Source of the DNA: Kiritimatiella glycovorans
GTDB taxonomy: Bacteria > Verrucomicrobiota > Kiritimatiellia > Kiritimatiellales > Kiritimatiellaceae
Direction of reading: 5' to 3'
DNA: 32,000 bases
Assembly: GCF_001017655.1 (NCBI RefSeq)
Contig: NZ_CP010904.1
Location: 1,440,001 to 1,472,000, forward strand
The first letter of the stretch is position 1. Every line of letters begins with the position of its first letter. Positions 14,486 to 15,728 of this stretch are shown here, piece after piece. Both the position numbers and the translations under genes were made by a program. Below the pieces are notes generated by a model that had not been told where the DNA came from, made no database searches, and saw only the letters and a list, made by a program, of their open reading frames with translations.

Positions 14486-15728
14486 CTTTCGGGACAACGG
14501 CGCTTCGCGCCTCGAGGCAACGCTGCGCTCGGGACAACGGCGCTTCGCGCCTCGAGGCAACGCTTCGCTCGGGGAAACGACATATCCCCCGACTGCCACG
14601 ATCCCCCCCGATTGCCACGAGGCCCCGCAGGGGCCGTTGACACGCTTTCCCCCGCTCGAGGAAACGGCGCTTCGCGCCTCGGGAAAACGCTTCGCTCGGG
14701 GAAACGACATATCCCCCGACTGCCACGATCCCCCCCGATTGCCACGAGGCCCCGCAGGGGCCGTTGACACGCTTTCCCCCGCTCGAGGAAACGGCGCTTC
14801 GCGCCTCGAGGCAACGCTGCGCTCGGGGAAACGACATATCCCCCGACTGCCACGAGGCCCCGCAGGGGCCGTTGACACGCTTCCCTCCGCTCGTGGAAAC
14901 GGCCTTCGGCCTCGGGAAAACGCTTCGCTCGGGGAAACGACATATCCCCCGATTGCCACGATCTCCCCCGACTGCCACGAGGCCCGCGAGGGCCGTTGCC
15001 ACGCCTTCTCCAGCTCGGGACAACGGCGCTTCGCGCCTCGAGGCAACGCTTCGCTCGGGGGAACGCCCCCCCCGATTGCCACGAGGCCCCGCAGGGGCCG
15101 TTGACACGCTTTCCCCCGCTCGAGGAAACGGCGCTTCGCGCCTCGAGGCAACGCTGCGCTCGGGGAAACGACATATCCCCCGACTGCCACGATCCCCCCC
15201 GATTGCCACGAGGCCCGCAAGGGCCGTTGACACGCTTCCCTCCGCTCGTGGAAACGGCCTTCGGCCTCGGGAAAACGCTTCGCTCGGGGAAACGACATAT
15301 CCCCCGATTGCCACGATCTCCCCCGACTGCCACGAGGCCCCGCAGGGGCCGTTGACACGCTTCCCCGCTCGGGACAACGGCGCTTCGCGCCTCGAGGCAA
15401 CGCTTCGCTCGGGGAAACGACATATCCCCCGATTGCCACGATCCCCCCCGCTCGTGGAAACGGCGCTTCGCGCCTCGAGGCAACGCTTCGCTCGGGGGAA
15501 CGCCCCCCCGACTGCCACGAGGCCCGCGAGGGCCGTTGCCACGCCTTCTCCAGCTCGGGACAACGGCGCTTCGCGCCTCGAGGCAACGCTTCGCTCGGGG
15601 GAACGCCCCCCCCGACTGCCACGAGGCCCCGCAGGGGCCGTTGCCACGCTTCCCCCGACTGCCACGAGGCCCCGCAGGGGCCGTTGACACGCTTCCCCCG
15701 ACTGCCACGAGGCCCGCGAGAGGCCGTT
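14486..15728. repeat. Mosaic tandem array of two GC-hairpin modules plus a short C-run/TGCCACGA motif. It is non-coding and not a CRISPR.
   Basis: Counted by hand.

- **Module 1:** 11 copies of CCACGA-GGCCCC GCA GGGGCC-GTTG(A/C)CACGC. Variants are GGCCC GCGA GGGCC and GGCCC GCAA GGGCC.
- **Module 2:** 11 copies of AACGGCGC TTC GCGCCTCG, two of them as GGCC TTC GGCC.
- **Short motif:** 17 copies of CGA(C/T)TGCCACGA, each preceded by a C-run.
- All units are in the same orientation.

Spacing between module-1 copies is 127, 108, 125, 104, 127, 124, 185, 104, 43 and 43 nt. Confidence 0.9.

What the first reader, a model, noticed from the sequence alone, without database searches (positions are those of the whole stretch)
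14486..15728. A 1.24-kb mosaic array of two hairpin modules fills the gap between a sugar transferase and a STAS gene
**Seen directly.** The 1262-bp gap between the transferase stop (15752) and the STAS start (14413) is almost entirely repeat.

- There are 11 copies of a module containing the perfect hairpin GGCCCC-GCA-GGGGCC. It is flanked by CCACGA and GTTGACACGC.
- There are 11 copies of a module containing GGCGC-TTC-GCGCC. It is flanked by GGAAAC/GGACAAC and TCGAGGCAACGCT.
- There are 17 copies of CCCCC-CGA(C/T)TGCCACGA.
- All units are co-oriented and mostly alternate, but they are shuffled, so spacing is irregular at 43 to 185 nt.

**What it is not.**
- There are no unique spacers and no cas genes, so it is not a CRISPR.
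- The units carry no T-runs after their hairpins, so they are not a stack of intrinsic terminators.
- The long ORFs across the array are Arg/Gly/Ser/Pro/Cys-rich repeat translations, so a coding role is implausible.

**Inference.** Its position inside an otherwise tightly packed minus-strand gene string, exactly where a partner-switching module is split, suggests one of three things:
- a structured RNA or protein-binding scaffold
- a recombinogenic copy-number switch
- a locally amplified REP/BIME-like element
Basis: partly seen in the sequence, partly recalled or inferred. Interest (0 to 1): 0.85.

Follow-up and report, generated by a model that had tools for sequence, protein, structure and literature searches.

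The report
Species-specific palindromic repeat array splitting an operon
The 1.24-kb block is real but is one of at least six arrays of a selfish-looking, hairpin-forming DNA repeat found only in Kiritimatiella glycovorans; here it sits inside an operon that is tightly packed in every relative examined, so it is an unusual member of a familiar class and not a locus-specific device.

Summary
**Observation:** confirmed. Window 14486-15728 is a dense, non-coding array with no Rfam, Pfam, tRNA, promoter or terminator match.

**Structure:** it is better described as 13 head-to-tail copies of one composite unit of about 127 nt (10 near-full, 3 partial) than as two shuffled modules.
- Unit-internal deletions and truncations explain the irregular spacing.
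- The two hairpin modules are inverted relatives of each other.
- The shorter units (103-105 nt) fold into one long imperfect hairpin, as REPINs do.

**Origin:** the source is Kiritimatiella glycovorans.
- In 9 loci from at least 6 different relatives, the same operon (Hpt, RR-PP2C-kinase, sugar transferase, STAS, hexapeptide protein) has only 10-15 nt between transferase and STAS.
- Here the gap is 1338 nt, so the array is a lineage-specific insertion.

**Not locus-specific:** translating the array and searching 5.8 billion protein clusters found only six "hypothetical proteins". All are from K. glycovorans and all are frame-scrambled translations of related arrays, in at least four genomic regions.

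**Best reading:** a species-specific BIME/REPIN-cluster-like mosaic repeat, amplified locally and tolerated within the operon transcript.
- The GTAG/CGTC tag was tested and not found.
- Abundant dispersal as singlets was inconclusive, because the source genome was withheld.
- A RAYT transposase could not be tested for the same reason.

**Interest:** moderate to low.

The parts
14486..15728 (-). Tandem array of 13 head-to-tail composite repeat units. The G-rich strand is the sense strand of the flanking operon. GenBank annotates it as hypothetical protein L21SP4_01247 (14440-15708, minus strand).
   Evidence: identity with P0121.
14488..14527 (-). Partial unit: left arm only (H2 hairpin plus the CTCGAGGCAACGC box).
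14528..14781 (-). Two full 127-nt units (14528-14654 and 14655-14781).
   Evidence: 123-nt exact internal repeat.
14782..14889 (-). 108-nt unit lacking one 19-nt CCCCCGAYTGCCACGA box.
14890..15013 (-). 124-nt unit with variant hairpins GGCC-TTC-GGCC and GGCCC-GCGA-GGGCC.
15014..15118 (-). 105-nt short unit with a compact centre hairpin. It folds as one long imperfect hairpin, REPIN-like.
   Evidence: ssDNA z = -3.2 and -3.0.
15119..15367 (-). Units of 126 and 123 nt (15119-15244 and 15245-15367). H1 variant GGCCC-GCAA-GGGCC lies at 15212-15225.
15368..15450 (-). 83-nt truncated unit lacking the H1 arm.
15451..15651 (-). Short units of 103 and 98 nt (15451-15553 and 15554-15651).
15652..15728 (-). 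Two right-arm-only units (43 and 34 nt). The last hairpin is degenerate (GGCCCGCGAGAGGCC).
15727..15740 (-). Boundary direct repeat, upstream copy (sense strand GGACGTCGGAAGAA).
   Evidence: 12 of 14 identical to the other copy; 20 of 500 shuffles score as well.
14467..14480 (-). Boundary direct repeat, downstream copy (sense strand GGACGTCGAATGAA).
14414..14485 (-). Unique, AT-richer spacer between the array and the STAS start. It ends in the retained ribosome-binding site GGGAGAAG. Stop codons in all three sense frames fall here.
   Evidence: orthologue junctions.
14069..14413 (-). STAS anti-sigma-factor antagonist gene, downstream of the array.
15752..16489 (-). Bac_transf sugar transferase gene, upstream of the array. 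The true start is M70 of the listed ORF, and the C-terminus is intact and collinear with orthologues.
16492..18526 (-). Upstream operon genes: Hpt (18122-18526) and the response regulator-SpoIIE/PP2C-HATPase_c_2 fusion (16492-18108).
   Evidence: synteny.
12656..14068 (-). Hexapeptide-repeat protein, the last conserved gene of the operon.
   Evidence: synteny.

Best explanation
The array is one copy of a Kiritimatiella glycovorans-specific family of mosaic palindromic repeats. In architecture it is closest to BIMEs and tandem REPIN clusters.

**Building block (shown).** The basic piece is a ~30-nt REP-like hairpin, CGA-[GC stem, 3-4-nt loop]-GTTG. Together they make a 103-127-nt composite unit, whose short forms fold into one long imperfect hairpin.

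**How it got here (the insertion is shown; the amplification mechanism is inferred).** DNA carrying such units was inserted between the transferase stop codon and the STAS ribosome-binding site of a conserved operon. It was then amplified and homogenised in place by unequal recombination, slippage or gene conversion.

**What it does (inferred).**
- It is co-transcribed with the operon as a G-rich, heavily structured, untranslated spacer.
- Such RNA is a poor Rho substrate, so downstream STAS and hexapeptide genes stay expressed and intact.
- Any effect is most likely a by-product of the REP/BIME type: a barrier to 3' exonucleases, or a processing site that uncouples upstream from downstream mRNA levels.
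- It is not a dedicated, conserved regulatory RNA.
For: **The array is real and has a unit structure**
- establish the array and its 13 units.
- The two hairpin modules are inverted relatives, and the arms can pair. Inverted repeats are GCCTCGAGGCAA/TTGCCACGAGGC (92%) and CGGGACAACGGC/GCCGTTGACACG (83%).
- RNAalifold chooses arm-to-arm pairing, with 98% of cells paired against 42-55% when the partners are slid.
- The 105-nt unit folds with z = -2.9 as RNA and about -3 as ssDNA.

**It is a lineage-specific insertion**
- 9 loci from at least 6 different Kiritimatiellales relatives carry the same five-gene operon with a 10-15-nt gap.
- The transferase C-terminus and the STAS ribosome-binding site are retained on either side of the insertion.

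**It belongs to a multi-locus family**
- Translated-array searches returned only six proteins among 5.8 billion clusters. All are K. glycovorans singletons: L21SP4_01247, 02319, 02129, 02323, 02326 and 00612.
- Three of the five from other loci (L21SP4_02319, 02129, 02323) match the array's G-rich strand in all three reading frames, at E = 1e-39 to 1e-67. L21SP4_02326 and 00612 were not run against the array. They are assigned from HMMER hits to P0123 (E = 4.6e-7 and 8.9e-7), from their sequences and from the module counts.
- All five carry both hairpin modules, in different proportions.

**It is absent everywhere else searched**
- 185,579 species genomes, JGI metagenomes and IMG/VR gave only chance singletons.
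- Plasmid and phage collections gave nothing.

**It has been reshaped recently**
- Exact internal repeats of 111-126 nt occur at non-adjacent offsets of 337, 355 and 540 nt.

**It is non-coding and matches no known RNA**
- Unit lengths are mostly not multiples of three.
- There is no Pfam match, no Rfam match and no tRNA.

**Composition**
- The sense strand is 40% G and 29% C.
Against: - The source genome was withheld. Genome-wide copy number, the presence of singletons, array orientation at the other loci, and a RAYT or other mobilising gene could not be examined.
- Classical REPs occur hundreds of times, mostly as singlets or doublets. Here no singleton was seen in 30.7 kb of flanking sequence.
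- The GTAG or CGTC tag typical of most REP families (PMC3733652) is absent.
- The 123-127-nt units do not fold significantly better than shuffles on the plus strand (z = -0.5 as RNA, -0.2 as ssDNA).
- No expression data exist, so co-transcription and any effect on mRNA are inferred.
Confidence: 0.68

Rival explanations
1. The array is a functional RNA scaffold or sponge. On this view it presents about 17-22 repeated hairpin or motif sites to an RNA-binding protein, or acts as a dedicated cis-regulator of STAS expression.
For: - The CCCCCGAYTGCCACGA box is conserved in all 17 copies.
- Folding potential is strong, with a minimum free energy of -726 kcal/mol for the 1321-nt sense stretch 14440-15760.
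- Hairpin variants keep perfect stems: GGCGC to GGCC, and GGCCCC-GCA to GGCCC-GCGA/GCAA.
- The position is inside a signalling operon.
Against: - The element is absent from every orthologous operon examined.
- The same family occurs at several unrelated loci in different module proportions.
- No covariation is seen, and conservation among copies is explained by recent amplification.
- Rfam gives no match.
Confidence: 0.12
2. The array is a recombination-driven copy-number switch. Changes in its length would tune or gate expression of STAS and the hexapeptide gene relative to the upstream kinase/phosphatase.
For: - Long exact internal repeats (111-126 nt) and truncated units show that the array is recombinationally active.
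- It separates partner-switching components whose stoichiometry matters (established knowledge of RsbV/RsbW-type modules).
Against: - No population or strain data are available, and no close relative exists in the databases (the nearest STAS is 74% identical).
- Related arrays at other loci argue for a generic repeat and not a dedicated switch.
Confidence: 0.08
3. The array encodes a real repeat protein, the annotated hypothetical protein L21SP4_01247 or a sister frame.
For: - All three sense frames are free of stop codons across 1.24 kb.
- A GTG codon lies 3 nt after the transferase stop.
- GenBank annotates ORFs on six such arrays.
Against: - Successive units differ in length by non-multiples of three, so the frame changes from unit to unit.
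- Three of the paralogous "proteins" were compared with the array, and each matches it in all three frames. The conserved entity is therefore DNA, not a reading frame.
- There is no Pfam family.
- No homologue exists outside this genome among 5.8 billion clusters.
- Absence of stops is not significant for a unit of this composition (P = 0.02-0.11).
Confidence: 0.02
4. The array is an assembly artefact, with its length inflated or collapsed.
For: Highly repetitive GC-rich arrays are error-prone in short-read assemblies.
Against: - The genome was closed with PacBio RSII (>10 kb library) plus MiSeq reads (PMC5148204).
- The units carry distinguishing variants in a consistent order.
- Five further arrays are annotated in the same assembly.
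Confidence: 0.03

Closest known systems
BIMEs (bacterial interspersed mosaic elements) of E. coli: clusters of REP/PU hairpins in alternating orientation, joined by linker motifs
   Same: - Short GC-rich imperfect palindromes alternate in orientation.
- Conserved linker boxes separate them.
- The whole is tandemly iterated in an intercistronic gap of a co-directional operon.
- Module composition is mosaic and differs between loci.
   Different: - It has 22 hairpins in 1.24 kb, which from my own recollection is larger than typical BIMEs.
- It has no GTAG or CGTC tag.
- No singletons were seen nearby.
- It is species-specific, in a phylum (Kiritimatiellota) where no such family turned up in my literature searches.
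- Binding by gyrase or IHF is untested.
Tandem REPIN clusters of Pseudomonas fluorescens SBW25 (Bertels & Rainey 2011, PMC3116915)
   Same: - The unit is two inverted REPs plus a spacer, folding into a long hairpin.
- Units are repeated head to tail as near-identical copies that include their flanking sequence (one search compared).
   Different: - The largest SBW25 cluster has 4 REPINs in just over 700 bp. This one has 10 near-full and 3 partial units in 1243 bp.
- In SBW25 most REPINs are dispersed singly and are linked to RAYT genes. Neither point could be shown here.
MIRUs (mycobacterial interspersed repetitive units); comparison from my own knowledge of Supply et al. 1997, not read here
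   Same: Tandem repeats of 40-100 bp sit in intercistronic gaps of operons, in one orientation relative to transcription, with frames open across the repeats.
   Different: - MIRU ORFs overlap the flanking stop and start codons. Here the open frames begin 3 nt after the transferase stop but end 26-55 nt before the STAS ATG.
- MIRUs are not built of inverted hairpin pairs.
NIMEs (Neisseria intergenic mosaic elements); comparison from my own knowledge, not tested
   Same: Long intergenic arrays of 50-150-bp repeat units are delimited by short inverted repeats, with mosaic composition, at a limited number of loci.
   Different: There is no sequence similarity, and no link to a dRS3-like phage or transposase target site is known here.

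Membership tests
REP / BIME | Short (20-40 bp) imperfect palindromes able to form stem-loops. | tested here: met
   H1 is GGCCCC-GCA-GGGGCC and H2 is GGCGC-TTC-GCGCC. In the nine near-full units aligned in A2, 97% of cells are paired; one search lists all 11 + 11 hairpins, of which one terminal H1 copy is degenerate. ssDNA hairpin energies are -5.6 to -7 kcal/mol.
REP / BIME | Successive palindromes in alternating (inverted) orientation, separated by conserved linker motifs and iterated in tandem. | tested here: met
   Module 1 is an inverted relative of module 2. There are 13 head-to-tail composite units.
REP / BIME | Extragenic location, typically between co-directional or convergent genes. 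| tested here: met
   It lies between the transferase stop and the STAS start, both on the minus strand.
REP / BIME | Many copies dispersed around the genome (tens to hundreds of sites). | tested here: inconclusive
   - At least six arrays in at least four regions are inferred from pseudo-ORFs.
- No singleton occurs in the 30.7 kb of flanks.
- The genome itself was unavailable.
REP / BIME | Unpaired GTAG or CGTC tag at one end of the palindrome (Di Nocera et al. 2013, PMC3733652). | tested here: not met
   The stems are flanked by ...CGA on one side and GTTG/GTTT on the other. No GTAG or CGTC abuts the stems.
REP / REPIN | A cognate RAYT (Y1 transposase) gene, usually flanked by the repeats. 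| not testable with these tools
   - No transposase-like domain is present in any window ORF.
- The rest of the genome was withheld.
- Arrays at L21SP4_02319, 02323 and 02326 bracket five unexamined genes.
REPIN | Two inverted REPs plus a spacer that fold into one long hairpin. | tested here: inconclusive
   - Met for the 105-nt unit that was folded, and assumed for the other short forms of 103 and 98 nt (z = -2.9 as RNA, -3.2 and -3.0 as ssDNA).
- Weak for the 127-nt unit that was folded (z = -0.2 to -2.4).
CRISPR | Identical direct repeats separated by unique spacers, with cas genes nearby. | tested here: not met
   There is no unique spacer: the whole interval is repeat. No cas-like domains occur in the window.
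Any curated RNA family (Rfam 15) | A covariance-model score at or above the gathering threshold. | tested here: not met
   No hits at gathering threshold. Only two sub-threshold chance hits appear at E = 0.9-4.
MIRU-type intercistronic repeat | A repeat ORF overlapping the stop of the upstream gene and the start of the downstream gene (translational coupling). | tested here: not met
   The open frames end at 14468, 14460 and 14440, which is 26-55 nt before the STAS ATG at 14413.

The most novel reading that the evidence does not exclude
K. glycovorans may carry a new class of mosaic palindromic satellite that spreads as whole arrays. It would do so without a RAYT and without leaving singletons.

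Its G-rich strand is stop-free in every frame and strongly structured. That combination could let it sit inside operons as a spacer that ribosomes can cross, or that resists Rho, while actively setting the ratio of upstream to downstream gene products. Here those products are the kinase/phosphatase and its STAS substrate.
Probability: 0.1. Interest if true: 0.6.

Novelty: new variant of a known kind. Interest (0 to 1): 0.33.

Why it matters
- **Annotation.** Six "hypothetical proteins" of K. glycovorans, one labelled a collagen repeat in UniRef, are almost certainly translations of repeat DNA.
- **New lineage.** It documents a BIME/REPIN-cluster-like family in Kiritimatiellota, a barely studied PVC lineage. 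At 10 near-full and 3 partial units, the array is much larger than the largest SBW25 REPIN cluster.
- **Natural experiment.** A 1.3-kb structured insertion sits inside an operon that is otherwise invariant and translationally tight, and whose product stoichiometry should matter. This is a convenient system for asking how operons tolerate such insertions, through Rho polarity, RNase processing or new promoters.
- **Limits.** It does not open a new category of biology on present evidence.

Tried and rejected
- **Known RNA.** Rfam at gathering and permissive thresholds gave nothing meaningful. ARAGORN found no tRNA.
- **Promoters and terminators.** None were found. The TTGACA inside GTTGACACGC has no -10 partner.
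- **Sigma-54 promoter reading of TGGCA-N-TGC.** Rejected by eye: the spacing is one nucleotide off and the GG is lost in the TGTCA variants.
- **CsrA-sponge reading of the GGA motifs.** Not pursued. The GGA motifs lie at stem edges and not in loops, and no genome was available to check for CsrA.
- **Exact-pattern scans.** Species genomes, metagenomes and viral contigs gave only single chance hits, in Halomonas, a capuchin gut assembly and one soil contig. These scans say nothing about the K. glycovorans genome itself, which appears to be withheld.
- **BLASTN against plasmids and phages.** No match.
- **Supplementary tables of the genome paper.** Not held.
- **Flanking direct repeat as a target-site duplication.** Only weakly significant (p about 0.04). 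It was not seen at the ends of the other pseudo-ORFs.
- **Stop-free sense strand as a selected feature.** Not significant for one unit.
- **Covariation analysis.** Uninformative, because the copies are near-identical.
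Full report

Yes.
- Reading 14200-16000 and running Tandem Repeats Finder shows overlapping arrays from 14489 to 15728, with periods of 43, 103-108 and 124-127.
- Three diagnostic motifs occur 7, 9 and 17 times, against about 0 expected in shuffles. Every hit lies inside the array.
- The rest of the 32-kb window holds no copy, even with two substitutions allowed.
- Only 7 H1 and 9 H2 hairpins have the exact sequences quoted.
- The gap between the genes is 1338 nt (14414-15751), not 1262.
- The genome paper reports a closed assembly from PacBio (>10 kb library) plus MiSeq reads (PMC5148204). Misassembly is therefore unlikely.

**2. Anatomy**

The array aligns cleanly as 13 head-to-tail copies of a single composite unit.
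- Unit lengths are 40, 127, 127, 108, 124, 105, 126, 123, 83, 103, 98, 43 and 34 nt.
- The irregular spacing comes from three sources: a 19-nt box deletion, a 22-23-nt deletion that shortens the central hairpin loop, and arm truncations. Free shuffling of two modules is not needed to explain it.

The unit has three parts, read on the plus strand.
- Left arm: CTCG-R-GGAAACG, the H2 hairpin, then CTCGAGGCAACGC.
- Centre: the hairpin UCGGGG...CCCCGA.
- Right arm: one or two TGCCACGA boxes, the H1 hairpin, then GTTGACACGC.

The right arm is an inverted relative of the left.
- The inverted repeats are GCCTCGAGGCAA/TTGCCACGAGGC (92% complementary) and CGGGACAACGGC/GCCGTTGACACG (83%).
- RNAalifold accordingly picks arm-to-arm pairing, with 32 pairs and 98% of cells paired.
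- The alternative of three local hairpins is equally compatible, at 97% paired.
- The 105-nt form folds as one long imperfect hairpin, with z = -2.9 as RNA and -3.2/-3.0 as ssDNA. The 127-nt form does so only weakly.

Other features of the copies:
- Hairpin variants keep perfect stems: GGCGC to GGCC, and GGCCCC-GCA to GGCCC-GCGA/GCAA.
- The copies are too similar to give any covariation signal.
- Exact internal repeats of 111-126 nt at offsets of 337, 355 and 540 nt show recent intra-array duplication or conversion.

**3. What it is not**

| Test | Result |
|---|---|
| Rfam family | none |
| tRNA or tmRNA | none |
| Sigma-70-like promoter or intrinsic terminator | none |
| Pfam match to any of five ORF translations | none |
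| cas or transposase genes in the window | none |

All three sense (minus-strand) frames lack stop codons. This is only marginally unusual for a unit of this composition (P = 0.02-0.11). Unit lengths are mostly not multiples of three, so any translation changes frame from unit to unit.

**4. Source and comparative context**

The STAS protein is 100% identical to that of Kiritimatiella glycovorans. The next best hits are 65-74% identical, from Kiritimatiellales and Pontiella.

Nine loci from at least six different relatives carry the same operon: Hpt, response regulator-PP2C-HATPase, Bac_transf, STAS and a hexapeptide protein.
- These are L004 to L012.
- They have 10-15 nt between the transferase stop and the STAS start.
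- The junction reads TAG-GGAGAA-N4-5-ATG.

In K. glycovorans the flanking signals are intact.
- The transferase C-terminus (…LLGKGAY) is preserved.
- The ribosome-binding site GGGAGAAG is preserved in front of STAS.
- All five genes keep orthologue-like lengths.
- The whole 1338-nt interval is therefore a lineage-specific insertion that has not inactivated the operon.

The orthologous loci contain no related sequence and no comparable array.

**5. Is it confined to this locus?**

No.

Exact-pattern scans outside K. glycovorans found almost nothing.
- Scans of 185,579 species genomes, JGI metagenomes and IMG/VR returned only chance singletons.
- BLASTN against plasmids and phages found nothing.
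- The source genome itself is withheld from these tools.

I therefore used the stop-free frames as a probe. Translating the array and searching 5.8 billion protein clusters returned only K. glycovorans "hypothetical proteins".
- L21SP4_01247 is this array in another frame, 99.8% identical.
- L21SP4_02319, 02129 and 02323 were also returned.
- A second search seeded with 02129 added 02326 and 00612.
- All six are singleton clusters from the GenBank annotation.

The evidence that these ORFs are repeat DNA rests on two kinds of test.
- tblastn shows that 02319, 02129 and 02323 match the array's G-rich strand in all three frames, at E = 1e-39 to 1e-67. This is the signature of conserved DNA, not of a conserved protein.
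- 02326 and 00612 were not run through tblastn. They are assigned from their weaker hits to 02129 (E = 4.6e-7 and 8.9e-7) and from the shared motifs in their sequences.
- Motif parsing shows that all five carry both hairpin modules, in different proportions (for example 5 H1 to 15 H2 in 02129), with loop variants such as GGCCC-TGAC-GGGCC.

The family is thus species-specific but multi-locus. It has at least six arrays, totalling at least 5.4 kb, in at least four regions. Three of them lie within eight locus tags of one another.

**6. Most likely explanation**

The architecture matches BIMEs and tandem REPIN clusters in four respects:
- GC-rich palindromes in alternating orientation;
- conserved linker boxes;
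- tandem iteration in an intercistronic gap;
- mosaic composition between loci.

Bertels & Rainey describe ordered tandem REPIN clusters whose largest example has four REPINs in just over 700 bp (PMC3116915). This array is considerably larger.

I infer the following history and behaviour.
- The element inserted between the stop codon and the ribosome-binding site.
- A 12-of-14 direct repeat, GGACGTCGRAWGAA, sits at both boundaries. It is only weakly significant (p about 0.04).
- The element was then amplified by unequal recombination.
- The sense transcript is 40% G and 29% C and highly structured.
- By established knowledge of Rho, which prefers C-rich, G-poor, unstructured RNA, such a transcript is a poor Rho substrate. 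This would explain why the downstream genes remain intact.
- Any effect on the operon is most likely of the REP/BIME type: a 3'-exonuclease barrier, a nuclease processing site, or partial attenuation.
- These functional steps are inferred, not shown.

**7. Membership**

| Feature | Result |
|---|---|
| Palindromes | met |
| Alternating orientation | met |
| Extragenic position | met |
| GTAG/CGTC tag of most REP families (PMC3733652) | tested, absent |
| High-copy dispersal as singlets or doublets | inconclusive (none in 30.7 kb of flanks) |
| RAYT gene | not testable |

I therefore describe it as working like a BIME or REPIN cluster, but as a new variant and not a demonstrated member.

**8. 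Verdict**

- The "REP/BIME-like" option is supported.
- The "locus-specific scaffold or switch" emphasis is not supported.
- Interest is moderate to low (0.33). The case is a tidy, unusually large example in an under-studied phylum. It corrects six annotations and offers a natural test of how operons tolerate insertions.

Noticed in passing
window 14440-15708 (minus strand), and K. glycovorans loci L21SP4_02319, 02129, 02323, 02326 and 00612 (P0121-P0126): Six GenBank "hypothetical proteins" appear to be translations of this repeat family. L21SP4_00612 is labelled "Collagen triple helix repeat (20 copies)" in UniRef. All are likely mis-annotations.
   Followed up: yes
K. glycovorans locus tags L21SP4_02319 to 02326 (outside the window; DNA not available): Three related arrays lie within eight consecutive locus tags and bracket five unexamined genes. 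This could be the home region of the family, and the place to look for a mobilising enzyme.
   Followed up: no
window 12656-18526, compared with L004, L006 and L009-L012: - Across Kiritimatiellales a Bac_transf sugar transferase is embedded in a conserved partner-switching operon (Hpt, RR-PP2C-HATPase, transferase, STAS, hexapeptide/transferase-like protein).
- In most relatives it is flanked by SecDF and a cation-efflux gene upstream, and in all by RecJ downstream.
- In K. glycovorans both flanks are replaced: a glycoside-hydrolase/TPR gene sits upstream, and a radical SAM-SPASM gene downstream.
   Followed up: partly
window 14486-15728, minus strand: The operon-sense strand of the array has no stop codon in any of its three frames, against 7 on the other strand. 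Stops in all three frames reappear within 46 nt after the array ends. For a single unit this is not significant (P = 0.02-0.11). However, all six arrays carry long open frames on the G-rich strand.
   Followed up: partly
window 14467-14480 and 15727-15740: The direct repeat GGACGTCG(A/G)A(A/T)GAA sits exactly at both array boundaries and contains the palindrome GACGTC. It may be a target-site duplication or a recombination junction. It is only weakly significant (p about 0.04).
   Followed up: partly
window 9288-9373 and 20796-20825: A 30-nt motif, TGAAACC-GA-A-TGAGACCTGAGT-AGA, occurs twice at 83% identity. At least the second copy appears to lie in an intergenic stretch. The first copy is followed by about 9 copies of a hexamer repeat (AATCAG/TCAGAG). 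This may be another short dispersed repeat.
   Followed up: no
window 15752-16696, minus strand: The listed 314-aa transferase ORF has a 69-residue Arg-rich N-terminal extension that overlaps the upstream gene. Alignment with orthologues places the real start at M70 (ATG at 16489), giving 245 aa.
   Followed up: yes
window 9249-12637, minus strand: A radical SAM/SPASM protein with a C-terminal SEC-C motif (11261-12637) is followed by two ORFs with no Pfam family (10202-10921 and 9249-10205). This set is absent from the orthologous loci. It may be a peptide-maturation cassette.
   Followed up: no
window 14499-14511 and similar sites (H2), and 14621-14635 and similar sites (H1): - On the strand where the basic ~30-nt element reads CGA-stem-loop-stem-GTTG, the loops in this array are GAA, GCA, GCGA or GCAA. 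These are GNA or GNRA types, known from my own knowledge as very stable mini-hairpin loops, for example d(GCGAAGC).
- Loops inferred for the other loci (GTCA, GTAG) do not all fit this pattern.
- This strand preference within the array hints at recognition or stability as a single-stranded hairpin.
   Followed up: partly
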